A stretch of 63,970 bases of DNA from a virus (Duplodnaviria; Caudoviricetes). Shown in pieces: positions 12,401-56,774 of the stretch (position 1 is the stretch's first letter; the number at the start of each line of letters is the position of its first letter). The position numbers and the translations under genes are program-made. The DNA lies in IMG/VR virus record IMGVR_UViG_3300013108_000662, positions 1-63,970 of that record; one strand, 5' to 3'. A model generated the notes under the pieces. It was not told the origin of the DNA, searched no databases, and saw only the letters and a program-made list of their open reading frames with translations.

Positions 12401-14935
12401 GGCTCGTCGGGATCCTGTCATGAATCCGACAGGAGGCGCTAAGATTGTACCAGAGACCGTAAACTCATCTAAAATTACGCCGGAATCAGCATGGACGCCG
12501 TGGAGTTCTATAACATAATCGTTATTAACAGCAGAGGCTGGAGCCGGAGCGGAGCCAGTGGGCATACCCTTGAACGGAAAGGTTAGAGGTTTAATGCGAA
12601 CGGACAAATTCCATCTTGTGTTATCATAAACTTCTTGATATAAATCCGACACAAGCCTTGGAACATAGCCGCCGGTCGATCCAGTCAGAACAAACCTTAC
12701 ATTCGAGGACTGTAGCTCATCTCTTTCTGCATATACTTGAAAGTTTGTTCCGTCTAGTGTGGGCCACGTAGTGTCGGCGGCAGTAGTGAGGGCGCCATGC
12801 ACACCAAAAAGTGAAGCACTAATAACATTAGTATTAATATATGCAATAGATGCTTGGTCGACTTTTTTGGGAAACAAGATTTCTGTTTCCATCGTAAGAG
12901 CATAGCCGCCGGTCAAATGAGTATTAGAGGCGATGAAGCCAACAGAATTTGTATTTAAGGGATCAGCATAGTTATAGACTGTGGCATTGTTTCCGGGAGT
13001 GGTATTAAAATCCACATAGTTATCGGCTTCTACAACATTGCGCCTATTGTTGCGCAGCTCGTATTCAATATTGTTAGCATACATATTGAACTTAACTAAC
13101 TCATCATCAATCCCGAAACAACGAAGAATATTTCGGAACGCCTTAATCGTCCCCTTCGTCTTATAAAGATACGAGAGATTGTTGTATAGATTTTGATAGA
13201 TAATATTCTTAGTGTCAGCTAGGGTTTGTTCATATACCTTATCTTCGCTCCTGTCAGCTAATCTCTCTAATATATCCGCATCAAGAAATATCTCAGGGGC
13301 TACCAAGCCCTTAGCCGCTAGCAAGTTTTGCGCAAAAGGTAGTGGCTTGTTGCTTCCACTAGGATACTGGACATCTTGAAGTGTATTGAGACTTTCGATT
13401 TGAAGCTGCAAAGTGTCAAAATAACTTGACATGATCTGAGTTAGGTATCGAAGATTACCCTCTCCCTCTTGATCTTCTTCGGTGATCCAGGCTGGAATAG
13501 AATTATAGACGGCAGCGTTGTTAATACCATCATATGCTGATCCCGATGTCTTCAGCGAACTAGCGAGCGCGACGACCTCCGGGTGGAAGGAGTATATAAT
13601 AGGATCCCGGAATTCCTTAATGGCTGCGCTAGAAGAAACTATAGCTGACCCGGTGTTTCGCGATCCTGCGCTGTACCCAGTCCAGCTACCGTTGGAGATG
13701 CGACCAGAATAGTCCAGTACGACACTATCAGTCGCCGCCACACCCGTTATACCTTCGTTAAACTTATAATAGACCCCTAGATCTACATTGCCGGATTCAG
13801 CAGTCTCTATGAAGGGCTGAGGGTCTGTGTTAACGCCTCCCCCTACTTGTGTGAACCAGTAGCGACCGATATCTTTCGAAGAACGTTGAGTTTTCCAATA
13901 GCGGAATTCGTCCAAGGATGCGGCTAGCTTGCCGTCGCCGGCTTTTGTAGCGCTAGGCGTGGCGGTGCCAGATACTGGGGCGATAAGTGCGCCGAGATAT
14001 GCTTGAAGTCCCGGAATGGCAATGTCATTTATGCCGGCAGATCCCAGCGTTTGGTCTCCATCAAGTCCGCCATCAACATAAAAACGTGTCTTTATTCCTG
14101 CAGAAGCGGACCTGAGTGTTACGGCGTAATGATGCCAGCGCCCGTCAGCAACCGAGGCGCTTGTGACTGTGGCACTTCCAATGGGCTGTCGATAAATGCC
14201 CGCGTTGCCGGACATGACGGTTAATAAGAACGGGTCCGATCCATCTGACAGGTTACCTGTGAGTTCTAGCCTTAATCGCGCGTAAGTAGCTGATGAGGAT
14301 ATTTCTCCATTCCACATGTCGAATATCACTTCGCGACTAGAAGTGGCAGGATCCAAGAATGTATCCTTCTTTAGCCAAAACTCAACCGAGGCGCCATGAG
14401 AAGCCAAATCGAAGGCCAGGTTTGAAGTCCGGCGCATTGAGGGTTCATAGTAGTTGGAGCCCGTAAATCCTACTGCGAGATTCTCCATCCCGTTTGGGTT
14501 GGTATTAGGTCCGCCCTTTACATAGATAAACTCCTGGGTGCTGGGGCGGCCGTAGCCGTCGATGACCTGGGTTGTTGCGGAGCCTTCTGCAGACATAATG
14601 ACATACCCAGTGGTACGGGGGTATTTCTCGTCATAGATGTAAAGATCTAGGTATGTGGAAGCATTAACCCACTTTAATCGTTCTTGGAGCGAACCGTCAT
14701 AAGGATATGTATTGTAGATGCGCCGGAGGGAACTGTCGTAGTATTCTTCAGCCGAGCCATACCGGGCGAAGTTTTCCGGCTTGGAAAAATCGACACGAGG
14801 TATGAATCTCTCTTCTTCGATGATATCTTGCTCGTGATACCCAACAGATTCAACTTCTGATCCTATGTCAGCGGCTGACTTGTTTGCGAGAGACTGTATG
14901 TTTTCGGCAACTTCGAAATACTTCTTAATGGTCAT
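6440..14935 (-). CDS. Giant baseplate wedge protein (T4 gp7/P2 gpI-like motif) with LamG/concanavalin A-like domains (2831 aa)
   Basis: LamG motifs SVEFWLK, DGRWHHYAVTL, LDEFRYW, VYYKFNEG. Wedge motif YLYKTKGTIKAFRNILRCFGI. Lies two genes downstream of the gp6-like gene. Confidence 0.65.
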   Translation of the reverse strand: MTIKKYFEVAENIQSLANKSAADIGSEVESVGYHEQDIIEEERFIPRVDFSKPENFARYGSAEEYYDSSLRRIYNTYPYDGSLQERLKWVNASTYLDLYIYDEKYPRTTGYVIMSAEGSATTQVIDGYGRPSTQEFIYVKGGPNTNPNGMENLAVGFTGSNYYEPSMRRTSNLAFDLASHGASVEFWLKKDTFLDPATSSREVIFDMWNGEISSSATYARLRLELTGNLSDGSDPFLLTVMSGNAGIYRQPIGSATVTSASVADGRWHHYAVTLRSASAGIKTRFYVDGGLDGDQTLGSAGINDIAIPGLQAYLGALIAPVSGTATPSATKAGDGKLAASLDEFRYWKTQRSSKDIGRYWFTQVGGGVNTDPQPFIETAESGNVDLGVYYKFNEGITGVAATDSVVLDYSGRISNGSWTGYSAGSRNTGSAIVSSSAAIKEFRDPIIYSFHPEVVALASSLKTSGSAYDGINNAAVYNSIPAWITEEDQEGEGNLRYLTQIMSSYFDTLQLQIESLNTLQDVQYPSGSNKPLPFAQNLLAAKGLVAPEIFLDADILERLADRSEDKVYEQTLADTKNIIYQNLYNNLSYLYKTKGTIKAFRNILRCFGIDDELVKFNMYANNIEYELRNNRRNVVEADNYVDFNTTPGNNATVYNYADPLNTNSVGFIASNTHLTGGYALTMETEILFPKKVDQASIAYINTNVISASLFGVHGALTTAADTTWPTLDGTNFQVYAERDELQSSNVRFVLTGSTGGYVPRLVSDLYQEVYDNTRWNLSVRIKPLTFPFKGMPTGSAPAPASAVNNDYVIELHGVHADSGVILDEFTVSGTILAPPVGFMTGSRRAYIGAHRQNFTGSVLASSDVKVNAARYWLDYVEDEALRGHALDSQNHGALQPHLYAFPFNPSASFGEITKFDTLVFNWEFLNNTGSNASGQFSVTDLSSGSASPSRFGALGNILNKQYTGLGNYFSPSSTTAIDKDFIVSSKLNLPEQLYGEEMVRTLGAQELHALTSDSRPVNYSFAFEKSMYQVISEEMVNYFATLKDFNNLIGDPVERYRTDYKKLSFMRQKFFESIENPVLDFDKFYEFYKWFDSSLSVILSQFVPASADVTDSILTVIENHILERPKYRHKFPFLEKIGGNEIGSSISNITSPPPPSPPAQPGFNNSQDLTYRQIGSSNPPSMRSWQYLHAPIGPGSENNNLYWHRYRAEASTSDLDAITSVIQERFHRGNQSNARLSMRAQLELGGVSRHPNNRPNYVFAATAPFGPTVPGTAQIPQNIMVGLGTEVEQLIETNDQFYPSSSYKQRLGFSLDPGINRGASDDQKQDGNNYAPFSLYSSSVKTGYNEAVVTQYRSGTLITNLHDDFVLGHDKPLQGPFSEKFVGGRFYRHTPINSGDDTVLSRAEGFRIQFTGVTSSAGTVFADSLAIIPANSTGGAPVPQIPTAFRMREETAKRPVNIKNILMTTASMGVTLSGTIAHDRIGNYQKNYQVISTNGRTTNDPFFNDQSFDFALYPETLATRGKFPLDATSTANPGGEIDYALPNRTGANSNQTIIVNRFSSPGEYSTLSRGYMEPAHEELSVNNAGPYRNQRVINFGFPGSASMDPSIQNTIRVVDQIQKNRGLNQLSTLHAGKFGMDAAYGTLATIAQFPSWHKTNRNPRRRIIQTGEQFAGPGKGYIAVYATGTVYDNLYVQHAIPRSTQQYSWVTGSMISGTAILGLQPPSFNSASTLSQIVISGTYPGSNFVGIRNRILDPVTASSHILGFPLSSVASSSYYNSTLGLGLSNGADYFNVLMNNRGNVYGTPSWKQIRTSEHPIVRQLRQTNKIGATLVPPKIPNIIGGNTIGFIQPQNPNAFIDYYEPPISNNSSPIQFYFEDNTANSNPANNMVVSVPFHASLEHFNHRGLNQLLGINTEFNTASPYKQVASYTLYSPLSVAVNYSQRVYPSALNVYKAAIRSRTRFTITNIWDDSRDKRSLTYGGQLGSMGQTVAYESTWPMDGHLNFTTSASTNLNDGAGELLNAYSRYSGYSLEGDRTAIIAAPTYAMRLPLGEDPVSEFPVFVGDAQWLAGSQSGKSPYSNYVSYAEKMRAHGKDYSIVPEFRMSGLIETYINTYEGDFQASLDNILELTGSSLSSSAQDGFYRIYTNGDFLKYFSVIDNDLNEQRSGDLKIIRDKIALKCDALVKFLPYKGFYPAERTAVIAQLLSQSYGSSINANAESLRILLEPMVSPGILYNTIKSGIAVSNFVLANTSSSPDFMNRPPASGPPSNLFTYSDEREKTIAIPYTIPLNVPLDDTDAAGGYVPNKIPFEALYKPESFFNNTVLQQLPLGGALSTKLYDTGTKDSAAEPTPYPSGQNSSIDFVSFQGDQLYKLAMDNFLCETTNMFMGRLTNFQSAREESFQPVRSGSTYSMQLKLFRTPIPSNAKQGPDTERFTLYDNSLAFGQPLVAKPTSANGLSMTHVTPPYYGAAAYCKFEYTATWSGIPSLQEIFANTTMTFTRNSMNGTTDASTSPMQMNIDSCFNLTDTLETVPAGTVEQKDRWLIQSKFETPALNFAHVSASVPPESTVLAGIGAEEFKVKGMWHQYGQIPEDSKDGIFAVVSAGSGSIQGDLAQIIGMPTGIPKRIGTLQPGFTMSEALVAIPFRNKDNERQFIAMPPGAKDTATYEKAVNALNKYVFPPKFDFVEFDSVLPIMMYVFEYSVNLTQQDLVDIWQGLPPKIGEKFQTQEAYVEEKELIDLLIAENSPVQWMVFKVKQRAKKDFETYRRSLVSENTDSITPNITSPYSYNWPYDFCSLVELAKINEQVQYVSTDLKQNTNISTNESLDVDRTEN

Positions 14936-21280: not shown

Positions 21281-24200
21281 TTAACTAGGCTCTTCTCCGC
21301 GGTCCTCTGAGCGATTAGAGCGGGGATCCTGCGGGTCTGGTGAGGGATCACCGCCGCCGCCTTGTTCCGGCGGGGAGTTTTGTTCCCATGGGTCGGGGGG
21401 ACTCGGAGAACCATCACCGCCGCCGCCGCCCTGGGACGCGGCGCGGAGATCTTCGTCCGTAATGGTCGCGACAGATGGGAAGTCGGCAAAGTACGCTTCA
21501 TAAACTTCATCAACATACCCTGGGAGGGCGCGGCGTGGTCCGAGGCTTTCAATTGGAAGAGCCTCCGTATTCCACGGCAATCTATAAGGATCACCGGGAA
21601 AGGAGCGTGCTCCCCGGCCGGGTTCATTAAGGGGCTCGGGCCATGAATTCGTCTCGTAGCGGGACTCATAAATACGTGTCCAGCCGTAGGTGCTATCAAA
21701 TTCCTCAAAAATGAGTATCTGTTCTTCATACCATTTTTCAAAATGGGCATCAGTGCCGGGGTAGGATGCGCCCAGAGAGCGCTGATATGGTTTTGAGGGT
21801 CCGGCCCAATAACTCCAAGAATATAATAAAGGCGGTGCCATACTATTCTCTTGAGCTGGTGGATCTGTTTGTTCGCCAGTTGCCGGGTCGATCCAGACGC
21901 GTCGGGAATAAATATTTTCAATCAACGGCATCACAAAACCAGTGCCACGAGGAGGTGGTTCGTCCCGGAATTGAACCGGACCTGAACTAGGGTCTGTGAG
22001 GGGTTCGGGGTTGGAGCCGGGGGTGGTGTCCCACATAAGAGGAGGAGTGGCGTGGCTATGGGGTCCGGTGATATTATCGTGGTCGCTGTGGATCACGGGT
22101 TCCCCTGACGGATCAAGGTGAGTGTGTGCTCCCGGAGGGGATTCGGGCGCTTCGATCGATGTGGTTAAGTCTCCCGAATAATACCACAGCGAATAAACGC
22201 GCTGTTGATAGTGTGAGATAGGGGGCTGGACACTATCAACTTCATCTACTATAAAGACTCTAGAGCGAGAAGAGAATGAGATCTGGGCGGCGATTTGAAT
22301 ATCTGTTATAGAAGAGGGCTCTTGTAATGCCGATTGAAGAACGGGATAAGTAGAGATAAGTGCTTGGTCCATGGGGCGAGGGAACTTATTGGTCTTAGCG
22401 AGTGCTCGTTGGATCGTATTTGTTATAGGGGTGGCGGCAAAATGGAGTCGCTCAGACACCAGATAATCTATTATATCCTCAAAGCCGGCCGTGGTTGAAG
22501 CCGCAGATGTGGTGTTTGTGAAAACTGTCCCTGTAGGGAAAGCTATATCTCCGGGAGTGCCGCTATAGCGGATTCCACCATTGGCTGTGATTGAGGGTCT
22601 AACGATCTTCTTACCGAAATAACTCAATATGTCATTCTTAATAGCTGTCACATTACCCGGGCGCATAGAAGGGGGGAGTTTGATTGCCGTGGGATTTTCG
22701 ATAAATGCGATCGCGCGGGACTTAACTTGTTGTTTGATAAACCTGAATAGATATCCGTTGTGGTCCGTGAGCAATGAGTCCAGATTGAAGGCAGCAAAAA
22801 CAAAGATATTTTTAACCACTATTTCAGCTAACGCAATCTGAATATATAAGAGCATCAATCCAAGCTTGAGGGCGCGGCGGACTTTATCGCGGGCAGTGTC
22901 TCTTAGGTCGTTGCACGCCTGTTCAGCATACTCACGCGTCATTTGCTCTAAGATTCCTTGGATATCCAGCAAGTCTGCCACCTTATCGGGAGGACAGTCC
23001 TCATTTAGATGAAAGAGCTGCAGCGTTTTAAGCGTTGCTGCATCAAATGCCCCGTTTTCTATAATATAGTCAAACATGTTTTTTAACAAGGTCGCATAGA
23101 CCTGGGGGAATTGATTTTCGAGGACAAAGGAACGGTTTTCGACCATCTCTTCTTCTCTTGCGTCTTCTTGTTCATTTGAAGGTAGGGTAGAAAAATTGAA
23201 TTGAGTGTCAATATAGTTCTCTAAAAACTGTTGAAGATAAATATTTGTTGCAGAGGAGTGGGAGTTCTCTGGTTCGGACAAGCCTAATTCTGTCAGTTGG
23301 GGCTGAAGTTCATTTAGAATCCCGTTGCTTAGTACAAGTTGTGACGTCGATTGGGCTTGTATTTCCACCAATTGTGACTGTCCCGGAGTATTTAGTGGAT
23401 ATACTATTTGTAGATATTCATGAGTGGGGGCTGTAACCGTGGAGGGTATAGGGGGCGGAAAACTAAACCGGATGTTATGGGGCTTTACAGGATTCATGGA
23501 GAGGTCGTCGATGCTTAACGTGTTTGGGTCTGTCTCCGTGGGAAAAGCACTAAAATGGACTGGGGCATTATATAATCCAGTAGCACTAATAAACGTTGCT
23601 TTAGAGGGTTGCACATAGTCTCGGAAGTCTCGGAAAAAGTCCTGCTTAAAACGATAAGTACGGATTACTGGTCCGTCACCTTCAGCGAGATTAGTTAGAT
23701 TGTTAGATAGACCCTGAAGTCCAGCGTTAAATTGACTTGTGGCTAATGCCCTGATCATCTCTTCAACAATATCGCCAAAGAGTCCGAAGTTCTCAGTAAC
23801 GTCAAAGCCGACGACATCTTCCAAAGATGGGTCACAGTCTATAGTGAGATCCCTTATTATATCGGCCCCTCCTTCCAGTTGAGTCATAACTGAACTAATT
23901 TTTTCTTCAATATCGTTAAGAATGGCAGGATCTAAATCCTCTAGCGAACCTGTTGCTTCTACGGGGCGCCATAGATTTGCAGTATCCGCCGTACCTAAAA
24001 CATTTGACTCGGCTCCCCTAACCAGTACGGGGTCAAGAAGAATCTCTTTTATTGATTCGGCGGAACTTATAAACTGGACCTCTACCGTTTCTGCCACCGC
24101 ATTGAACACTTCTGGGATAGCTTTAGTAATAGTAGGGTCATTAATGAAGTTCTCTCTGTCCATGCAATCAAAATTAACTTCAGGGAGATTGGGCAGCAGA

Positions 24201-26368
24201 TCTCCCAGGTCTTCAAGATTCGGCAGGTTTAAGCAAATATTCTCCTGATTTAAAGTTACAACCGTGTTGGCTATCTCATCGCAAAGTTCTGTTACATCAG
24301 TGATCCCGGAGAGGTCACTAATGAACCCCATTACAGAAGTGATATCTGATAATTGCTGTTGAATGATACTATTATCATAATTCTGGTTGAATTCCACAAT
24401 CCGATTTACGAGCGACATTGGAGGCTTTCCAAGAGGATTGAGAAGATTACATACGTCGACGGAACTTAATATTTGAGAGAGAGCGCTTAAGTACTGTCGT
24501 AGTACCGATGGATGCAGTCCATTTTTGGAAGCGAGCCCAGCTAGTCCGTCTTCTACGCTACCGGGTTCCGTGAGTAGTCCGTTTATATTACTGGCACCAT
24601 AGTCGCCGGCGAAAGGATTATTCACAGCGCATGCCTCTCTAATAAGATTGGCCATCTGCTCCACGATCGTAACAGCCATTCGCTGTAGAGCACTCACAGC
24701 CGCCTGCTTGATAAGGTTTCCGATATCTCCATCTTTCAGCTTAGGCTTCAAACTCTTGAAATCAAACTTAGGGATCTGTATAAATTCTCGTGGCTCAGGG
24801 GGCTTTCGATAATATACATTTAATGCTTGGGAGTGTAGTGCTGTCTTTACTGCGCTAACAAGTCGGCTAGCCTCAAAATTGGCCCCAAAAGTGAGACACA
24901 ACATTACCTCCTTTAAGAGCTGATCTATGCCCAGAGAGCGTATTAGCCTAGCTACTGCTGGATTGAGCTTCCCAACTAACCCTAAAGGCATAAGGGGGTT
25001 TGCCAATATGTCCTCCACCACAGATGCGGCTGAGGCTGCTGCGGTGAATCCTTTAGTTTTCTGTACAGCGAAAACTTTACGCCGAACGTCTCTATTGCTT
25101 CGTATTTCTTTGCTGATTTTTTCTATTTCAGCCTCTGTATATAGTGTACTGAACCCCTCCTTTAAGGCGGTTACATCTGTCGCTGAGATCAGCCCAAGTT
25201 CTTTGGCGGCCTTAATATATTCATTTTGAATTGATTCTTGATGTTGTGCCGCCAGCTCGGCTGGTGTCATGGGTCGCGGGAGAGCGACAGAACCGCTAGC
25301 GATATCTCCTAGGCTCCCGAAAGTTCCAAAGTTGAGTCCAAATGAGCCTGATAAGGTGGACATAACGTTGGGAGACTCCAAGAACTGCCACACCGTATAT
25401 GGTGGGGCGTCCGGATTGATTGAACCATTTTCCACCTGCTCTACAATCGTTCGGTAGTTCTGTAATATTGCAACGGTCATTGGATCGTGGAATTGTGTCT
25501 TGTAGAGAACTGCTGAGAAGACTCCCACTTTGAGTGGGCTATTTTGAATGGACTCTTCCACCAATAGATAGGACATTCTCACGACTGCGGGTTTATTGTT
25601 CTTTTTTCCAAATTCTAAAGTAAGAGTGTCGGCATCCGTAAGATTAGCGGCTGAGGAGCGTCGTAATTGGGCGACCAAGCTACTCACGAGCCAATTTAGC
25701 GTTAGCTGAACGCTCGTTTGTGTGAAAGTAAAATCAAGATTTATGTTTAATTGTCCTTCGAACCCTTGGTGCTGTTGGTTAAAAGCCCGGAGTCCATCAT
25801 TAAGGAAGTTGTTTTGGCGCCCCAATGATGCGATCGCTAATGTTGTGGAAGATGTAGGAACAGACACATTATTTTTAGTACGGAAATATTCGTAGTTGGA
25901 CTCATAAGAGGGCATCTTGCCCTCAGCTTCCAACTTCTCTCGTCGGGCGAGGAAATCGAGGTTTGTGCTCACAACAACAACGCTCTTGTTAGCCATGGGG
26001 GGTGCGGCGTTAAAGTAATGTTCTATCTTTATTGAGCGCTGAATACTTGACATCAACTCTATTGTTTCGGTCATAGATATCATCGGCTGCGGCTCGTTGT
26101 CCCCGGGGAGGGTCAATTTAGGACTATTATCTAGTATTTCTTGGAACGTCGTCTCATTGAAAAGATAGGTGTAGAACTCCGGAAGATAATGCGTGACATA
26201 ATAGCGGAGTGCTTTCTCCTTTAATTCTGCCTCTCTCTCCCTTTGTTCGGAAGCATTTCGGATACGAGGACTAACCTTGAACTTAAGTTTATAGGACTTA
26301 GTAGATTCTTCATAAAATGGAATCTTAAAATCCTGATTGAGATATCTTTTAGGAGGTAATAAAGGCAT
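21281..26368 (-). CDS. Large hypothetical virion protein (1695 aa) with Pro/Gly-rich C-terminal tail
   Basis: Long, mostly helical-looking ORF directly downstream of the spike genes. Confidence 0.65.
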   Translation of the reverse strand: MPLLPPKRYLNQDFKIPFYEESTKSYKLKFKVSPRIRNASEQREREAELKEKALRYYVTHYLPEFYTYLFNETTFQEILDNSPKLTLPGDNEPQPMISMTETIELMSSIQRSIKIEHYFNAAPPMANKSVVVVSTNLDFLARREKLEAEGKMPSYESNYEYFRTKNNVSVPTSSTTLAIASLGRQNNFLNDGLRAFNQQHQGFEGQLNINLDFTFTQTSVQLTLNWLVSSLVAQLRRSSAANLTDADTLTLEFGKKNNKPAVVRMSYLLVEESIQNSPLKVGVFSAVLYKTQFHDPMTVAILQNYRTIVEQVENGSINPDAPPYTVWQFLESPNVMSTLSGSFGLNFGTFGSLGDIASGSVALPRPMTPAELAAQHQESIQNEYIKAAKELGLISATDVTALKEGFSTLYTEAEIEKISKEIRSNRDVRRKVFAVQKTKGFTAAASAASVVEDILANPLMPLGLVGKLNPAVARLIRSLGIDQLLKEVMLCLTFGANFEASRLVSAVKTALHSQALNVYYRKPPEPREFIQIPKFDFKSLKPKLKDGDIGNLIKQAAVSALQRMAVTIVEQMANLIREACAVNNPFAGDYGASNINGLLTEPGSVEDGLAGLASKNGLHPSVLRQYLSALSQILSSVDVCNLLNPLGKPPMSLVNRIVEFNQNYDNSIIQQQLSDITSVMGFISDLSGITDVTELCDEIANTVVTLNQENICLNLPNLEDLGDLLPNLPEVNFDCMDRENFINDPTITKAIPEVFNAVAETVEVQFISSAESIKEILLDPVLVRGAESNVLGTADTANLWRPVEATGSLEDLDPAILNDIEEKISSVMTQLEGGADIIRDLTIDCDPSLEDVVGFDVTENFGLFGDIVEEMIRALATSQFNAGLQGLSNNLTNLAEGDGPVIRTYRFKQDFFRDFRDYVQPSKATFISATGLYNAPVHFSAFPTETDPNTLSIDDLSMNPVKPHNIRFSFPPPIPSTVTAPTHEYLQIVYPLNTPGQSQLVEIQAQSTSQLVLSNGILNELQPQLTELGLSEPENSHSSATNIYLQQFLENYIDTQFNFSTLPSNEQEDAREEEMVENRSFVLENQFPQVYATLLKNMFDYIIENGAFDAATLKTLQLFHLNEDCPPDKVADLLDIQGILEQMTREYAEQACNDLRDTARDKVRRALKLGLMLLYIQIALAEIVVKNIFVFAAFNLDSLLTDHNGYLFRFIKQQVKSRAIAFIENPTAIKLPPSMRPGNVTAIKNDILSYFGKKIVRPSITANGGIRYSGTPGDIAFPTGTVFTNTTSAASTTAGFEDIIDYLVSERLHFAATPITNTIQRALAKTNKFPRPMDQALISTYPVLQSALQEPSSITDIQIAAQISFSSRSRVFIVDEVDSVQPPISHYQQRVYSLWYYSGDLTTSIEAPESPPGAHTHLDPSGEPVIHSDHDNITGPHSHATPPLMWDTTPGSNPEPLTDPSSGPVQFRDEPPPRGTGFVMPLIENIYSRRVWIDPATGEQTDPPAQENSMAPPLLYSWSYWAGPSKPYQRSLGASYPGTDAHFEKWYEEQILIFEEFDSTYGWTRIYESRYETNSWPEPLNEPGRGARSFPGDPYRLPWNTEALPIESLGPRRALPGYVDEVYEAYFADFPSVATITDEDLRAASQGGGGGDGSPSPPDPWEQNSPPEQGGGGDPSPDPQDPRSNRSEDRGEEPS

Positions 26369-51703: not shown

Positions 51704-51780
51704 TGGCTGCGGCGGTTGGATTCGAACCAACGACCCTCCGATTAACAGTCGGACGCATCTACCAGCTGAGCTACGCCGCA
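51704..51780 (-). tRNA. tRNA-Asn (GTT)
   Basis: TGCGGCG/CGCCGCA acceptor, anticodon arm TCCGA-CTGTTAA-TCGGA, GTTCGAATC, encoded CCA. Confidence 0.93.
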
Positions 51781-51824
51781 CCATTACTAATTATACAGCA
51801 TTCTTCTTATTTTTACATCAAATA

Positions 51825-51913
51825 TGGCAGAGGGAGCGGGATTTGAACCCGCGGTGGCTACAAACCACACAGCCTTTCCAAGACTGCACCATAAACCGCT
51901 CGGACATCCCTCT
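51825..51913 (-). tRNA. tRNA-Ser (GGA)
   Basis: AGAGGGA/TCCCTCT acceptor, CAGTC-TTGGAAA-GGCTG, long variable arm, G discriminator, CCA. Confidence 0.92.
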
Positions 51914-51920
51914 TGATTGT

Positions 51921-51995
51921 TGGAGCGGGTGATCAGATTCGAACTGACGACATTCGCGTTGGCAACGCGATGCTCTACCACTGAGCTACACCCGC
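51921..51995 (-). tRNA. tRNA-Gly (GCC)
   Basis: GCGGGTG/CACCCGC acceptor, TCGCG-TTGCCAA-CGCGA, U discriminator, CCA. Confidence 0.95.
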
Positions 51996-52345
51996 TAATA
52001 CTCTTTCTTTACTGCTAACTGTTTTTCTACTAATAGTTCGTTGATATTCTCGTCTTTGAGGTATATTACACCAATATAACGCCCATATTTACCTTTTTTA
52101 TCTTTTTGTGTCTGAATAATGACCTCTTTGTCTAGAATAAGGTCTCTAAGGAAATCTCTGGTCTTTAATCCTTCGGGTCTGCTCTTTCCGCGGACCTCTG
52201 GCGCATTAATCCCGGCTAATCTAACTTTTATAGTTGTTTTGATCTTGAATCCTAAATCAACTAAAGCTGTGACCGTATCCCCATCATAGACCTTTACGAT
52301 CAGGGCATTGTAACAGTAGGGCTTTATATCCATAGCGCCATACAC
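51995..52345 (-). CDS. Thermonuclease (SNase-like) family protein
   Basis: KVYDGDTV, VRLAGINAPE, GKYGRYIG, NINELLV. True start may be 52333. Confidence 0.88.
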   Translation of the reverse strand: MYGAMDIKPYCYNALIVKVYDGDTVTALVDLGFKIKTTIKVRLAGINAPEVRGKSRPEGLKTRDFLRDLILDKEVIIQTQKDKKGKYGRYIGVIYLKDENINELLVEKQLAVKKEY

Positions 52346-53106
52346 TGGAGTGAGCCGCCGGATTTGAGGAACTCAGATGTATCCAACAGATGAACATCAA
52401 ACCCACGTTCTGTTAGCAAGAATTTTAGTCCTTCATTGCCTGCGGGCATAAGTATATGATCTTTAAATACAATGGAGTTACAAGCAAACCTGTTGGCTTC
52501 TTCTTCCGAAACTGCGAGAAGTTCTATATCTTTTACTTTGTTGATAGTGTGCTTGCTGAACGCGCCAGGATAATAGATAGCAAAATCTTCTCTCAGTAGC
52601 GAAAAGCAGGTATCCAAGTGATAGAAATTAGGGTTTTTAAGTTTCAGAGGAAGAAGATCCAGCTCAAGGATCTCAGCAGCCCGACGGATAGCCTTAAGAT
52701 CCGATCGGAACCCATAACCTGCAATCATCTGATTATTCGTTACGATAGTGTCTCCGCAGCCTTCAAAGTTCATCTCCTCAGGCAAGACAAAAGTTTCATA
52801 TCCCTTTTCATCAAACCACTGCTTGAAGACTTGGCGCTCCATTTTGCGCTCAACATGCTTGAAGTTACTTAATACTACCTTGTTATTATGAACAGTTCCT
52901 GCATTGGCTGTAAATACCATGTCCGGCAGGAGTGGCCACTGCCCTATGAGTTTTGTTTTGGCACCTAGAAACTCTAGAGTATTCTTCATATTGAACCACT
53001 GCTTCATAACGAGTTCGCTATTTACAGGTTCGCCCTTCATCCAGGGGTTAATAGAGTAGGTGACATCAAAGTGGATAGGGGGACAAAGTAAGACAGTATT
53101 GTTCAT
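52324..53106 (-). CDS. Amidinotransferase/DDAH (pentein) family protein, arginine dihydrolase-like (260 aa)
   Basis: LLCPPIHFDVTYSINPWM, PDMVFTANAG, FEGCGD, FYHLDTCF, EFLKSGGSLQCM (catalytic Cys). Confidence 0.88.
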   Translation of the reverse strand: MNNTVLLCPPIHFDVTYSINPWMKGEPVNSELVMKQWFNMKNTLEFLGAKTKLIGQWPLLPDMVFTANAGTVHNNKVVLSNFKHVERKMERQVFKQWFDEKGYETFVLPEEMNFEGCGDTIVTNNQMIAGYGFRSDLKAIRRAAEILELDLLPLKLKNPNFYHLDTCFSLLREDFAIYYPGAFSKHTINKVKDIELLAVSEEEANRFACNSIVFKDHILMPAGNEGLKFLLTERGFDVHLLDTSEFLKSGGSLQCMALWI

Positions 53107-53134
53107 ACTTTATATAGTAGGTGAGAAGAGTAAA

Positions 53135-53211
53135 TGGTCGGAGTGGTAGGATTCGAACCTACGACTTTCGCGTCCCAAACGCGACGGACTGCCAGACTGT
53201 CCTACACTCCG
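53135..53211 (-). tRNA. tRNA-Pro (TGG)
   Basis: CGGAGTG/CACTCCG acceptor, TCGCG-TTTGGGA-CGCGA, CCA. Confidence 0.93.
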
Positions 53212-53214
53212 ATA

Positions 53215-53292
53215 TGGTGGGCAATGAGGGACTCGAACCCCCGACTTCCTCCGTGTAAAGGAGGCACTCTAAACCAACTGAGTTAATTGCCC
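53215..53292 (-). tRNA. tRNA-Val (TAC)
   Basis: GGGCAAT/ATTGCCC acceptor, CCTCC-TTTACAC-GGAGG, CCA. Confidence 0.94.
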
Positions 53293-53297
53293 GAAAA

Positions 53298-53373
53298 TGG
53301 TGGAGGTGATAGGGATCGAACCTACGACATCCAGCTTGCAAAGCTAGCGCTCTCCCAACTGAGCTACACCCCC
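53298..53373 (-). tRNA. tRNA-Ala (TGC)
   Basis: GGGGGTG/CACCTCC acceptor with G3:U70, CTAGC-TTTGCAA-GCTGG, CCA. Confidence 0.95.
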
Positions 53374-53380
53374 ATTATTT

Positions 53381-54057
<677 letters not shown>

Positions 54058-55987: not shown

Positions 55988-56299
55988 TTATTCACAACAG
56001 TCGTGTTTATCTTGATTATCTTCCCTATTGGATAGTTTAACCCACAGACCCCAGAGGATCGGAATTGCTAACCAATGAAAACACAAGATAAGAGATGCGG
56101 GGATTCCAGCATAGAAAGCTGGATGTACATAGTTCCCCAAGGCGCCAAAGATAATCGGAAATACAACGTCCTCGACAATCTCCCACCCAACAAATATGAT
56201 AACAAAAGCTAATCCATTTTTCCTCAGGAAGGCTCTTAACCTCTCTTTGGAGAAGTTGGCCAACTTGTGAGAGATTCTAGATTTTAACCATGTAATCAT
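55988..56299 (-). CDS. Small membrane protein (103 aa)
   Basis: Two hydrophobic segments. Starts 8 nt after the CCA of the upstream RNA. Confidence 0.65.
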   Translation of the reverse strand: MITWLKSRISHKLANFSKERLRAFLRKNGLAFVIIFVGWEIVEDVVFPIIFGALGNYVHPAFYAGIPASLILCFHWLAIPILWGLWVKLSNREDNQDKHDCCE

Positions 56300-56307
56300 A
56301 AGTTTTT

Positions 56308-56389
56308 TGGTGGAGGTGCACGGAGTCGAACCGTGGTCCTGAGAATACCCTTGCAGGTCTTAATCCCAGTCGAAACCCAAACCACCCCC
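56308..56389 (-). ncRNA. Mini-tmRNA: tmRNA tRNA-like domain only, lacking the mRNA-like domain (82 nt)
   Basis: Minus strand reads GGGGGTG GTTTGGGTTTCGAC TGGGATTAAG ACCT-GCAA-GGGT ATTCTCA GGAC CACGG-TTCGACT-CCGTG CACCTCC ACCA. It has an Ala acceptor with G3:U70, an unpaired tmRNA-type D-loop ending GGnTTCGAC, helix 2a (CTGGGA/TCTCAG), GGAC linker and T-arm. Confidence 0.8.
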
Positions 56390-56423
56390 ATTTGGATGTT
56401 GACATAAGTAAATATATCAGTTA

Positions 56424-56774
56424 TTATAGATCATCACTAAAGGAATCTCTAATCTTATACTTATTCTTCAATTTATTAAACTGTAAATCTGTAATACCTA
56501 ATATTCTAGTGCATTCTTTATTACTGTTTCCAATGCTAATGACAGCATTGTATAGAGCTTCTTTAACAACTTCTACTGTGATTGACCAAAGGTTAAAACC
56601 ATACAATCTTCCAGCAGTTAGCCGGCTTGAGCACTCTAGTTTAAGGGCTAATAGTTCTTCCAGGGTCAAGGATGAGAGCATTATTTCAAATGCTTCATTA
56701 GACTTACCTTCTTTTCTCAGCTTGTTAGAGAAGGAAATATTTCTACTAAACCCCTCAGTACGGGATTTTGTCAT
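56424..56774 (-). CDS. Protein with C-terminal Fis-type helix-turn-helix (116 aa)
   Basis: VKEALYNAVISIGNSNKECTRILGITDLQFNKLKNKYKI resembles the Fis/HTH_8 pattern. Confidence 0.55.
   Translation of the reverse strand: MTKSRTEGFSRNISFSNKLRKEGKSNEAFEIMLSSLTLEELLALKLECSSRLTAGRLYGFNLWSITVEVVKEALYNAVISIGNSNKECTRILGITDLQFNKLKNKYKIRDSFSDDL

What the first reader, a model, noticed from the sequence alone, without database searches (positions are those of the whole stretch)
56308..56389. Phage-encoded 'mini-tmRNA': intact tRNA-like domain with the tag-reading domain replaced by a GNRA hairpin
Seen: an 82-nt RNA with an Ala acceptor stem (G3:U70, A discriminator, CCA) and no D-stem. Its 14-nt loop GTTTGGGTTTCGAC has the same length and GGnTTCGAC ending as the tmRNA D-loop (E. 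coli ATTCTGGATTCGAC). It also has helix 2a, the tmRNA GGAC connector and a T-arm. Where tmRNA carries ~270 nt of pseudoknots and the tag ORF, there is only TAAG-ACCT-GCAA-GGGT, a GNRA-capped hairpin. A late-promoter-like ATATTTA (56415-56409) and a TATAAT (56428-56423) lie just upstream. Known: the TLD binds SmpB and EF-Tu and is charged by AlaRS; tag-less tmRNAs are known from some mitochondria. I do not recall a described phage TLD-only form. Inference: it could sequester SmpB and block host trans-translation, or alanylate stalled nascent chains without adding a degradation tag, or act as a nuclease decoy.
Basis: partly seen in the sequence, partly recalled or inferred. Interest (0 to 1): 0.92.

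Follow-up and report, generated by a model that had tools for sequence, protein, structure and literature searches.

The report
Phage tag-less mini-tmRNA (tRNA-like domain only)
This phage carries an 82-base remnant of the bacterial ribosome-rescue RNA (tmRNA) that keeps only the alanine-accepting tRNA-like part, one of a conserved family found in many uncultured phages that probably interferes with the host's rescue-and-tagging system.

Summary
Window 56308-56389 (- strand) matches the Rfam bacterial tmRNA model end to end (67.2 bits, cut-off 47), with 302 model positions replaced by 9 nt. The tRNA and mt-tmRNA models give no match there, and ARAGORN calls nothing.

It is not a one-off. One strict pattern found 119 IMG/VR contigs, of which 112 are the same kind of ~80-nt RNA in 65 subfamilies. 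The same pattern found only 15 in 185,579 bacterial species genomes. Covariation is strong: 98.9% of cells paired against 69.1% when shuffled, and G3:U70 in 100 of 100. In ten relatives the RNA is 88-100% identical while the upstream gene is 55-69%. A complete 194-kb relative has no SmpB and no full-length tmRNA.

The kind is already known from one case, mycobacteriophage DS6A ("TLD only"), reported to inhibit tmRNA in E. coli. My model scores DS6A at 57.7 bits.

The most likely role is competing with host tmRNA for SmpB and stalled ribosomes. Function and expression are inferred, not shown. The breadth of the family appears undescribed in the searchable literature.

The parts
56308..56389 (-). 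whole 82-nt tag-less mini-tmRNA (tRNA-like domain plus capped helix 2a)
   Evidence: RF00023 scores 67.2 bits over model positions 1-374, with 302 positions replaced by 9 nt. My model R1 scores it 75.3 bits.
56383..56389 (-). acceptor stem, 5' strand GGGGGUG (G3 at 56387)
   Evidence: Sequence. All 7 acceptor pairs are standard in 100 of 100 family members, and G3:U is invariant.
56370..56382 (-). D-loop analogue, 13 unpaired nt ending GGGUUUCGA, with no D stem
   Evidence: Aligned to the tmRNA D-loop consensus. The loop length before TTCGA varies from 6 to 11 nt in the family.
56364..56369 (-). helix 2a, 5' strand CUGGGA
   Evidence: Pairs 2-6 of this helix are standard in 87-102 of 103 unique family members, with 6 pair types. 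Five of its 6 pairs show changes on both sides.
56345..56363 (-). apex: UUAAG, ACCU-GCAA-GGGU hairpin, AU (UAA at 56360-56362), in place of about 300 nt of pseudoknots and tag frame
   Evidence: Sequence. Similar NAA[AG]NCC apexes occur in 30 of 65 subfamilies. They resemble the start of helix 2b in ordinary tmRNAs from fetched loci.
56339..56344 (-). helix 2a, 3' strand UUCUCA-G (G51 is the first G of GGAC)
56319..56338 (-). GAC connector and T arm (CACGG-UUCGACU-CCGUG)
   Evidence: T-stem pairs 1-4 are standard in 100 of 100 members, with 3-4 pair types each.
56308..56318 (-). acceptor 3' strand CACCUCC, discriminator A, encoded CCA
56423..56451 (-). possible sigma-70-type promoter TAGAGA-17-TATAAT, overlapping the stop of the upstream gene
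   Evidence: The consensus scan gives 10 of 12 matches. It is only partly conserved in relatives, as TAGAAT or AAGAAT. Weak.
56424..56774 (-). upstream 116-aa gene, syntenic with the RNA in all 9 relatives with enough held DNA upstream; no family match
55988..56299 (-). downstream 103-aa gene that starts 8 nt after the CCA; replaced by other genes in some relatives
51704..53456 (-). two groups of phage tRNA genes on the same strand (7 tRNAs); the tRNA-Ala(UGC) at 53298-53373 has the same acceptor stem and discriminator as the mini-tmRNA

Best explanation
Identity: the element is a tag-less, tRNA-like-domain-only derivative of bacterial tmRNA, encoded by a large uncultured marine myovirus-like phage. 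It belongs to a conserved phage gene family of the same kind as the 'TLD only' RNA of mycobacteriophage DS6A.

Proposed mechanism (all steps inferred unless marked otherwise):
1. It is transcribed on the - strand together with, or just behind, the upstream gene, then cut out like a tRNA. RNase P would cut at G1 and the 3' end would be trimmed to the encoded CCA.
2. Host AlaRS charges it with alanine through G3:U70 and the A discriminator.
3. Host SmpB binds its D-loop/T-loop elbow. The phage encodes no SmpB.
4. EF-Tu delivers the complex to ribosomes stalled on mRNAs that lack a stop codon.
5. The RNA can accept the nascent chain but has no reading frame to offer.

Net effect: it competes with host tmRNA for SmpB and for stalled ribosomes. 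This suppresses ssrA tagging, and the proteolysis and mRNA decay coupled to it, during infection.

What has been shown elsewhere: peptidyl transfer to synthetic TLD-only RNAs has been measured, and inhibition of tmRNA by a DS6A-like molecule in E. coli has been reported. For this element itself, every step is inferred from sequence.
For: Identity:
- RF00023 scores 67.2 bits end to end, with the middle deleted.
- There is no tRNA or mt-tmRNA model match.

Selection on the structure:
- In 100 family members, 98.9% of cells are paired against 69.1% when shuffled (0 of 500 shuffles as high) and 48-56% with slid partners.
- The covariation score is 0.767 against 0.157, and 13 of 18 pairs change on both sides.
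- Within the window's own subfamily, the RNA is 88-100% identical to the window's copy. The upstream gene is 55-69% and the downstream DNA 45-81% identical. Changes inside the RNA keep the pairs: UA to GC in helix 2a, AU to GC in the T stem.

The family is a phage family:
- 112 of 119 pattern hits in IMG/VR are of this kind, against 15 of 108 in 185,579 bacterial species genomes.
- Several of those 15 lie in arrays of 10-21 tRNAs, typical of binned phage contigs.
- 41 of 128 loci have a tRNA gene within 200 nt, and all 47 nearest tRNAs within 1 kb are on the same strand.

Dependence on host factors:
- No SmpB gene in 0 of 6 related records, including one rated 100% complete at 193,778 bp. Each has exactly one mini above the cut-off and no full-length tmRNA.

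Same kind as DS6A:
- Model R1, built without DS6A, scores the DS6A element at 57.7 bits, E 1.3e-10.
- It has the same architecture.

Mechanism:
- Hudson et al. [quoted passage not shown]
- PMC11915505 (passages) says the DS6A form inhibits endogenous tmRNA when expressed in E. coli.
- PMC3895274 (passage) reports that peptidyl transfer to a TLD-only tmRNA was measured by Shimizu and Ueda 2006.
Against: - There is no evidence here that the RNA is made, processed, charged or bound by SmpB.
- The RNA-library evidence is one 284-nt contig of a ~93% relative that bridges 56249-56457. It is contig data only, and DNA carry-over is not excluded.
- The folding energy is not exceptional (z = -0.61) and the MFE structure lacks the T arm.
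- G3:U70 is kept in 100 of 100 members, although the search pattern allowed C at position 70. A pure SmpB sponge would not need charging, because uncharged versions also inhibit. This points to a role on the ribosome and fits the tag-less-rescue rival as well.
- The benefit to a phage of blocking trans-translation is not established. Some phages are said to need tmRNA (my recollection; not checked here).
- The host is unknown.
- The family was collected with patterns that fix TTCGAC, GGAC, the T loop and the 3' end, and with an acceptor-pairing filter. Conservation at those positions is therefore by construction.
- I could not read Mao et al. 2009 itself.
Confidence: 0.55

Rival explanations
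1. Tag-less ribosome rescue. The Ala-charged RNA with host SmpB enters stalled ribosomes and takes the nascent chain. The chain is then released without a degradation tag, either by ArfB-type or Pth-type hydrolysis after drop-off, or by a release factor reading the UAA next to helix 2a. The phage thereby frees ribosomes without feeding its own truncated products to host proteases. This is what is assumed for the frame-less mitochondrial tmRNAs.
For: - G3:U70, the A discriminator and the acceptor stem are invariant or always paired in 100 of 100 members, which argues that charging matters.
- TLD-only RNA accepts peptides in vitro (PMC3895274, passage).
- Frame-less tmRNAs kept together with SmpB are thought to help organelles cope with incomplete mRNAs (PMC11915505, passage).
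- UAA just beyond helix 2a occurs in 32 of 65 subfamilies. Shuffles give a mean of 12.8 and a maximum of 23 in 1000, and it occurs in 2 of 64 ordinary tmRNAs from fetched loci.
Against: - The reported effect of such a molecule in E. coli is inhibition of tmRNA, not rescue.
- No release step is known for a TLD-only RNA.
- Helix 2a is described as the counterpart of a long variable arm that points away from the decoding centre (my recollection of Bessho et al. 2007, not checked here). A UAA 7 nt into it is therefore unlikely to be decoded.
- About half of the subfamilies lack the UAA.
Confidence: 0.25
2. A decoy or sponge for something other than the rescue system. Candidates are a defence nuclease or sensor that recognises tRNA- or tmRNA-like RNA, AlaRS, or RNase R.
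For: - Defence systems with SmpB-like domains predicted to bind tmRNA exist (CoCoNuTs, PMC11090510, passages).
- A phage anti-CRISPR that works through tRNA and tmRNA fragments and RNase R is described (PMC11662646, passages).
- These are leads only; nothing links them to this element.
Against: - No protein family is linked to the RNA across the class. The best-linked family occurs in 9 of 65 subfamilies and reflects synteny among one phage group.
- Conservation of the complete AlaRS and elbow features is more than a decoy for a nuclease would need.
Confidence: 0.08
3. A decaying or accidental remnant: a broken tmRNA gene, or the ssrA piece carried at the attachment site of an integrating phage.
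For: - ssrA is a common integration site and phages carry fragments of it (PMC9004378, passage).
- At least one member (L173) is an obvious internal-deletion copy of an Alcaligenaceae-type tmRNA in a context that is not clearly phage.
Against: - Both the 5' and 3' halves are present and pair perfectly.
- There are 65 subfamilies with compensatory changes.
- The RNA is much better conserved than its flanks.
- A complete relative has no other tmRNA.
- In a Prochlorococcus single-cell genome the host tmRNA is two-piece and differs in acceptor, T arm and helix 2a from the one-piece mini on the phage contig.
Confidence: 0.03
4. An unusual D-arm-less tRNA-Ala that decodes codons.
For: - It has an Ala acceptor stem identical to that of the phage's own tRNA-Ala(UGC).
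- A 67-nt subfamily (L039, L048, L065, L075) has a 5-bp stem with a 7-nt loop in place of the apex. ARAGORN calls L039 and L048 tRNA-Glu.
Against: - The tRNA model gives no match at E<=10 and ARAGORN makes no call here.
- The window's apex is a 6-bp helix, an internal loop and a 4-nt-capped hairpin, not an anticodon arm.
- Even the 67-nt forms score best as tmRNA (69.2 bits).
Confidence: 0.02

Closest known systems
'TLD only' tmRNA of Mycobacterium phage DS6A (tmRNA Website tmID 11587; JN698994 28478-28560)
   Same: - About 83 nt and phage-encoded.
- It has an acceptor stem, a stemless D-loop, a 5-bp helix 2a and a short apex of the GAAAACC-GCAC-GCGGUA type, which resembles several of the new subfamilies.
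- It has a T arm and no pseudoknots or tag frame.
- My family model recognises it at 57.7 bits.
- It is reported to inhibit tmRNA in E. coli.
   Different: - DS6A has GGUCGAC and GGCAC where the window has UUUCGAC and GGAC, and it ends ACUA rather than with an encoded CCA.
- It scores under the Rfam cut-off (43.2 against 47 bits), whereas the window scores 67.2.
- It comes from a 60.6-kb actinophage, not a large marine myovirus-like phage.
- It is not annotated in the GenBank record.
Bacterial one-piece tmRNA (Rfam RF00023)
   Same: The tRNA-like domain is complete: G3:U70 acceptor stem, A discriminator, CCA, D-loop ending GGnUUCGAC, helix 2a, GGAC and the T arm. The first nucleotides after helix 2a resemble the start of helix 2b in proteobacterial tmRNAs from fetched loci.
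   Different: It lacks all four pseudoknots, the resume codon, the tag frame and its stop: 302 of 374 model positions are missing. It therefore cannot perform trans-translation as defined.
Frame-less organellar tmRNAs (jakobid mt-tmRNA, Rfam RF02544; two ~65-bp plastid forms)
   Same: These are tRNA-like-domain-only tmRNAs without a tag frame. They are kept together with SmpB and presumed to be still useful (PMC11915505, passage).
   Different: There is no sequence or model match: RF02544 finds nothing in the window at E<=10. The organellar forms arose by reductive evolution of the resident gene. The window's RNA sits in a virus and acts beside an intact host tmRNA.
Full-length phage tmRNAs (mycobacteriophages of the Bxz1 group, Bacillus phage G, two-piece ssrA of Melnitz and pelagiphages)
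   Same: They are phage-borne ssrA-derived genes, often near tRNA genes.
   Different: They keep a tag reading frame and are found by ARAGORN. The window's RNA has none and ARAGORN misses it.
tRNA-Ala
   Same: The 7-bp acceptor stem and discriminator are identical to those of the phage's own tRNA-Ala(UGC) at 53298-53373.
   Different: It has no D stem and no anticodon arm, and the tRNA model gives no match.

Membership tests
Bacterial tmRNA (Rfam RF00023) | Covariance-model score at or above the curated gathering score | tested here: met
   67.2 bits against a cut-off of 47, E 5.4e-24, model positions 1-374.
Bacterial tmRNA (Rfam RF00023) | tRNA-like domain: 7-bp acceptor stem with G3:U70, A discriminator, CCA end, stemless D-loop, T arm | tested here: met
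   Sequence and alignment. Across 100 family members, G3:U and all acceptor and T-stem pairs are standard.
Bacterial tmRNA (Rfam RF00023) | Helix 2a joining the tRNA-like domain to the body | tested here: met
   It has 6 pairs here. Five of 6 pairs show changes on both sides, and 96.8% of cells are paired.
Bacterial tmRNA (Rfam RF00023) | Pseudoknots PK1-PK4 | tested here: not met
   302 model positions are replaced by 9 nt. Only 19 nt lie between the two strands of helix 2a.
Bacterial tmRNA (Rfam RF00023) | Tag reading frame with a resume codon and an in-frame stop | tested here: not met
   There is no room for one, and ARAGORN finds no tmRNA or tag peptide. It is therefore not filed as a functional tmRNA.
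Bacterial tmRNA (Rfam RF00023) | Alanylation by AlaRS and binding of SmpB and EF-Tu | not testable with these tools
   Only the sequence determinants are present.
Phage TLD-only (frame-less) tmRNA, DS6A type | About 80-nt RNA made of the tRNA-like domain plus a capped helix 2a, encoded in a phage genome | tested here: met
   It is 82 nt. The contig has a baseplate wedge protein, PhoH and 7 tRNAs, and is an IMG/VR virus record.
Phage TLD-only (frame-less) tmRNA, DS6A type | One structural model recognises both this RNA and the DS6A RNA, and separates them from tRNAs and ordinary tmRNA ends | tested here: met
   Model R1 was built from 10 other subfamilies. It scores the window at 75.3 bits and DS6A at 57.7. 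tRNAs and non-mini pattern hits score at most 41.4.
Phage TLD-only (frame-less) tmRNA, DS6A type | Inhibits host tmRNA function when expressed | not testable with these tools
   This is reported for a DS6A-like molecule in E. coli. The primary paper, Mao et al. 2009, is not held.
tRNA (Rfam RF00005) | Cloverleaf with a D stem and an anticodon arm | tested here: not met
   No match at this place at E<=10, while the 7 real tRNAs score 45.9-73.5 bits. ARAGORN finds nothing here.
Mitochondrial frame-less tmRNA (Rfam RF02544) | Match to the mt-tmRNA model | tested here: not met
   No match in the window at E<=10; 13 candidates were scored.
ssrA fragment at a phage attachment site | Consists of the 3' part of the host tmRNA gene only | tested here: not met
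   The 5' acceptor strand, D-loop and helix 2a 5' strand are present and pair with the 3' half. I did not scan the window for an integrase.

The most novel reading that the evidence does not exclude
The minis are not mere sponges but a working 'zero-length-tag' rescue RNA. Charged with Ala and escorted by host SmpB, they take the nascent chain from a stalled ribosome. The mini-specific UAA conserved just beyond helix 2a (32 of 65 subfamilies; 2 of 64 ordinary tmRNAs), or an ArfB/Pth-type factor, then ends the event. The phage would so recycle ribosomes while keeping its products out of the host's ssrA-ClpXP degradation route. This would be a widespread viral rewiring of bacterial ribosome rescue.
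Probability: 0.08. Interest if true: 0.9.

Novelty: new member of a known kind. Interest (0 to 1): 0.66.

Why it matters
Trans-translation is nearly universal in bacteria and is a drug target. Until now a phage-borne tRNA-like-domain-only tmRNA was a one-phage curiosity (DS6A).

This window shows the same device in an unrelated large marine phage. Following it up shows a conserved family in about 150 viral contigs. Where bins or records carry names, they range from cyanobacteria to Bacillota and actinobacteria.

That makes a concrete question testable: do phages commonly switch off or re-route the host's ribosome-rescue and protein-tagging system, and why?

It also supplies dozens of natural, compact candidate antagonists of SmpB-tmRNA.

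There is a practical annotation point too. ARAGORN misses the window's RNA and gave no correct call in the family sample; the window's copy was also missed by the Rfam tRNA model. Rfam's tmRNA model labels these RNAs 'tmRNA'. Phage 'tmRNA' calls of about 80 nt should therefore not be read as tagging-competent tmRNAs.

Tried and rejected
Close relatives among sequenced phages:
- blastn of 2.1 kb around the element found nothing in 50,697 GenBank phage records.
- The 82 nt alone gave only chance T-arm matches to tRNAs, plus a 35-nt match in Ruegeria phage RpAliso. The mini model does not recognise the RpAliso element at E<=1e-4.
- Three other subfamilies also gave no match at E<=1e-3. This shows only that near-identical copies are absent.

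Relatives by protein:
- PhoH and the baseplate wedge protein reach at most 37% identity. The best matches are Microcystis phage Mel-JY01 and Flavobacterium phage immuto.
- Neither of these has a mini.

Host:
- It was not identified.

Expression:
- The look-up of sequencing runs gave only small shares (0.07-0.32).
- Read laying used contigs only. Uncovered parts in X1 and X2, and the depth peak and the 80-nt contig at 56310-56389 in X5 (library kind unknown), cannot be read as expression.

A protein partner:
- I clustered 1990 ORFs within 4 kb of 128 minis. No family spans the class.
- The script that was to give references for all top clusters stopped on a coordinate assertion after four clusters, and I did not pursue it.

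Other checks:
- ARAGORN's longer 'tmRNA' calls over six minis (L005, L022, L117, L041, L102, L109) were rejected for the three I checked. Rfam places the match on the 82-85-nt form in L005, L041 and L109.
- MAFFT alignment A1 misaligned the 5' acceptor strand. I replaced it with anchored parsing and a model-based alignment.
- Folding energy gave no support.

Papers and tools not available:
- Mao et al. 2009 and Jacob et al. 2004 are not held.
- Supplements are closed. Table S1 of PMC9004378 (402 phages with ARAGORN tmRNAs) and the database tables of PMC11915505 might list further frame-less phage forms that I could not see.

My claim that the family is undescribed rests on searches and on passages of PMC4131195 and PMC11915505. 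It does not cover subscription journals or the tmRNA Website itself.
Full report
1. What is there.

On the - strand, window 56389 to 56308 reads as an 82-nt RNA. Its parts are:
- a 7-bp acceptor stem (GGGGGUG/CACCUCC) with a G:U at the third pair;
- an A discriminator and an encoded CCA;
- 13 unpaired nucleotides ending GGGUUUCGA in place of a D arm;
- a 6-bp helix, C21-G51 to A26-U46;
- an apex UUAAG / ACCU-GCAA-GGGU / AU;
- GAC and a T arm, CACGG-UUCGACU-CCGUG.

Rfam's bacterial tmRNA model matches it from its first to its last position at 67.2 bits (cut-off 47, E 5.4e-24), with 302 model positions replaced by 9 nt (repeated). Searched on its own, so that no clan competition applies, the tRNA model finds the window's seven tRNAs (45.9-73.5 bits) but nothing here, even at E<=10. 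The mitochondrial frame-less tmRNA model finds nothing. ARAGORN reports seven tRNAs and no tmRNA.

The minimum-free-energy fold is not better than shuffles (z = -0.61) and does not show the T arm. Energy alone therefore says nothing.

2. The genome around it.

The window is an IMG/VR virus record rated 41% complete, with 43-47% G+C in 8-kb windows. It encodes a baseplate wedge protein, a PhoH-like protein and glycosyltransferases. A class II aldolase and a DDAH-like enzyme lie among seven tRNA genes.

Its proteins are at most 37% identical to those of cultured phages. The best matches are Microcystis phage Mel-JY01 and Flavobacterium phage immuto.

All genes near the RNA are on the - strand:
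- A 116-aa gene ends 34 nt upstream.
- A 103-aa gene starts 8 nt after the CCA.
- Neither matches Pfam or PHROGs.

A sigma-70-like TAGAGA-17-TATAAT lies at 56451-56423.

The phage's own tRNA-Ala(UGC) at 53298-53373 has the same acceptor stem and discriminator as the mini-tmRNA.

3. It is conserved in relatives.

Ten IMG/VR loci carry an RNA 88-100% identical to the window's copy. In the same loci the last 150 nt of the upstream gene is 55-69% identical, the spacer 41-97% and the downstream 150 nt 45-81%.

Differences inside the RNA keep the pairs: U-A to G-C, G-C to G-U, and G-U to A-U or G-C in helix 2a, and A-U to G-C in the T stem.

The downstream gene is replaced by other genes in L062, L100, L090 and L057 (L006 holds too little downstream DNA to say). 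The upstream gene stays in all 9 relatives with enough DNA held there.

Five of these relatives were searched in full. Each has exactly one 82-nt match above the tmRNA cut-off (63-72.9 bits) and no full-length tmRNA. None of them, nor the window, has an SmpB gene: 0 of 6, including a 193,778-bp record rated 100% complete. The RNA must therefore work with host SmpB, if it works with SmpB at all.

4. It is one of a family.

I searched IMG/VR with a pattern that requires TTCGAC, then 15-45 nt, then GGAC, a T loop and YCCACCA.
- In 112 of the 119, a 5' strand that pairs with the 3' acceptor strand (at least 6 of 7 pairs) lies 12-18 nt upstream.
- The other 7 (L009, L023, L026, L033, L056, L066, L105) do not qualify. 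Five of them were searched with my model and score at most 41.4 bits.
- A narrower re-scan returned 30 loci, of which 27 were already among the 119. The total for the strict pattern is therefore near 130.
- The same pattern without an encoded CCA gave 37 more loci. Of these, 36 score 44.9-74.5 bits over the full model.
- A DS6A-style pattern gave 2.

The first pattern in one genome for each of 185,579 bacterial and archaeal species gave 109 loci, of which my script parsed 108.
- 85 are the 3' parts of ordinary 350-430-nt tmRNAs.
- My crude filter passed 23, and 8 of those were also ordinary tmRNA ends.
- 15 remain as true minis.
- Several of the 15 lie in arrays of 10-21 tRNA genes on metagenome-bin contigs, which look like binned phages.

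Among the 128 loci with a mini, 56 hold a tRNA gene in the DNA I had. In 47 the nearest is within 1 kb, always on the same strand, and in 41 within 200 nt. At 85% identity the minis form 65 subfamilies.

5. The structure is under selection.

With anchored parsing of 103 unique sequences:
- T-stem pairs 1-4, which the pattern left free, are standard in 103 of 103, with 3-4 pair types each.
- Helix 2a pairs 2-6 are standard in 102, 100, 100, 97 and 87 of 103, with six pair types.
- G3:U70 holds in 103 of 103, although the pattern allowed C at position 70.

I built a covariance model (R1) from ten sequences of ten subfamilies. It scores minis at 57.7-94 bits, and tRNAs and other pattern hits at no more than 41.4.

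On its alignment of 100 sequences:
- 98.9% of cells pair, against 69.1% in shuffles (0 of 500 as high) and 48-56% with slid partners.
- The covariation score is 0.767 against 0.157.
- 13 of 18 pairs change on both sides.

Three caveats apply:
- The alignment is fitted to the model.
- The acceptor filter and the fixed pattern positions make part of the conservation circular.
- Related sequences inflate shuffle tests. The slid-partner control does not suffer from that problem.

6. Origin.

In about half of the subfamilies the apex reads NAA[AG]NCC, then a short loop, then GG (30 of 65). A hairpin of at least 3 bp is predicted in 34 of 63. Ordinary proteobacterial tmRNAs in the fetched loci have a very similar string at the start of helix 2b. 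The minis therefore look like internal-deletion derivatives of one-piece tmRNAs.

One case (L173, an Achromobacter bin) is almost a straight deletion copy of an Alcaligenaceae-type tmRNA. Its neighbours are not clearly phage genes.

The minis are not simply copies of the current host's gene. On a phage-like contig in a Prochlorococcus single-cell genome, the mini is one-piece and differs in acceptor, T arm and helix 2a from that cell's own two-piece tmRNA.

7. What is known.

Hudson, Lau and Williams 2014 (PMC4131195; passages read) list 'Mycobacterium phage DS6A (TLD only)'. They state that a similar molecule, chargeable or not, strongly inhibits tmRNA, perhaps by titrating SmpB, citing Mao et al. 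2009.

The 2025 tmRNA database paper (PMC11915505; passages read) again names DS6A as the phage case. It appears beside jakobid mitochondria and two plastids, after a search of RefSeq viruses.

I located the DS6A element at JN698994 28478-28560:
- It is 83 nt and scores 43.2 bits with RF00023, under the cut-off.
- It has the same architecture.
- It is unannotated in the GenBank record.
- It is recognised by R1.

Five literature searches found no description of a wider phage family. That statement is limited to the open-access library, and supplements were closed.

The window's RNA is thus a new member of a known but barely studied kind. The size and conservation of the family appear to be new.

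8. How it most likely works.

Shown here:
- the sequence determinants for AlaRS (G3:U70, A discriminator);
- the complete tmRNA elbow;
- purifying selection on all three helices;
- absence of a tag frame and of a phage SmpB;
- frequent placement in tRNA clusters.

Taken from papers:
- TLD-only RNA undergoes peptidyl transfer in vitro (PMC3895274, passage).
- A DS6A-like RNA inhibits tmRNA in E. coli.

Inferred: the RNA is processed like a tRNA and charged with Ala. It then binds host SmpB and EF-Tu and enters non-stop ribosomes. It competes with host tmRNA, so that tagging and its coupled decay are suppressed. I put this at 0.55.

The invariant G3:U70 argues that charging matters. That fits action on the ribosome better than a pure sponge, and it keeps the tag-less-rescue rival alive at 0.25.

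An unexplained feature is the UAA just beyond helix 2a. It occurs in 32 of 65 subfamilies, against a shuffle mean of 12.8 (maximum 23 of 1000) and 2 of 64 ordinary tmRNAs. It could be a structural motif. A read stop codon seems unlikely on geometric grounds, but those grounds are recalled, not tested.

Expression is not shown. One RNA-library contig of a ~93% relative bridges the RNA and both flanks, and that is all.

9. Verdict.

- The finding still opens a family-level question that looks unreported.

Noticed in passing
window 56360-56362 (-), and the same place in L003-L230 minis: UAA sits just beyond the 5' strand of helix 2a in 32 of 65 subfamilies (62 of 103 unique minis). A mononucleotide shuffle gives a mean of 12.8 and a maximum of 23 in 1000. 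It occurs in 2 of 64 ordinary tmRNAs from fetched loci. It could be a structural motif or a signal; this is unexplained.
   Followed up: partly
L039:2015-2081, L048, L065, L075: A 67-nt subfamily has only a 5-bp stem with a 7-nt loop between TTCGA and GGAC, which looks like an anticodon arm. The middle loop letters differ between close relatives (CCA against GCA). ARAGORN calls L039 and L048 tRNA-Glu, while Rfam scores L039 best as tmRNA at 69.2 bits.
   Followed up: partly
L041:6093-6154 (-) and L039:871-1073 (+): A Pistol self-cleaving ribozyme (51.9 bits) lies about 105 nt upstream of the mini-tmRNA of L041, on the same strand. A RAGATH-24 RNA (54.1 bits) lies about 940 nt upstream of the mini of L039.
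   Followed up: no
window 56391-56405 (-), and relatives: A TGTCA motif about 15 nt upstream of G1, and AAAT directly before G1, are conserved in most of the 11 members of the window's subfamily, while the letters between them vary. This could be a processing or promoter signal.
   Followed up: no
window 53298-53373 (-): The phage tRNA-Ala(UGC) has exactly the same 7-bp acceptor stem and discriminator as the mini-tmRNA.
   Followed up: no
L173:3823-3902 (+): The mini in an Achromobacter metagenome bin is nearly a straight internal-deletion copy of an Alcaligenaceae-type tmRNA (compare L197). RF00023 scores it 91.2 bits. Its neighbours (O-acetyltransferase, methyltransferase, HAD hydrolase) are not clearly phage genes.
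   Followed up: partly
L286:1501-1792 (-) and L170:3956-4036 (+): One Prochlorococcus single-cell genome holds both its own two-piece tmRNA (301 bits with RF01851) and, on a 130-kb phage-like contig, a one-piece mini with a different acceptor stem, T arm and helix 2a.
   Followed up: yes
JN698994 28478-28560 (L235:1501-1583): The published 'TLD only' tmRNA of phage DS6A lies between gp33 and gp34 and has no feature in the GenBank record. It ends ACUA, so the CCA would have to be added.
   Followed up: yes
OR257569.1 2874-2956 and 2987-3423 (L236, L238): Ruegeria phage RpAliso has two unannotated weak tmRNA-model matches (34.7 and 28 bits) next to a tRNA cluster. This may be a permuted or degenerate ssrA. 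The mini model does not recognise it.
   Followed up: partly
window 56310-56389: In run X5 (library kind unknown) an 80-nt contig covers exactly the RNA at depth 457.6, while flanking contigs are at about 40-200. This could be an assembly collapse of a conserved segment shared by many strains, or an abundant small RNA. It cannot be told from contigs.
   Followed up: no
window 6440-14935 and 21281-26368 (-): Two very large ORFs of 2831 and 1695 aa lie in the structural region near the baseplate genes. I did not examine them.
   Followed up: no
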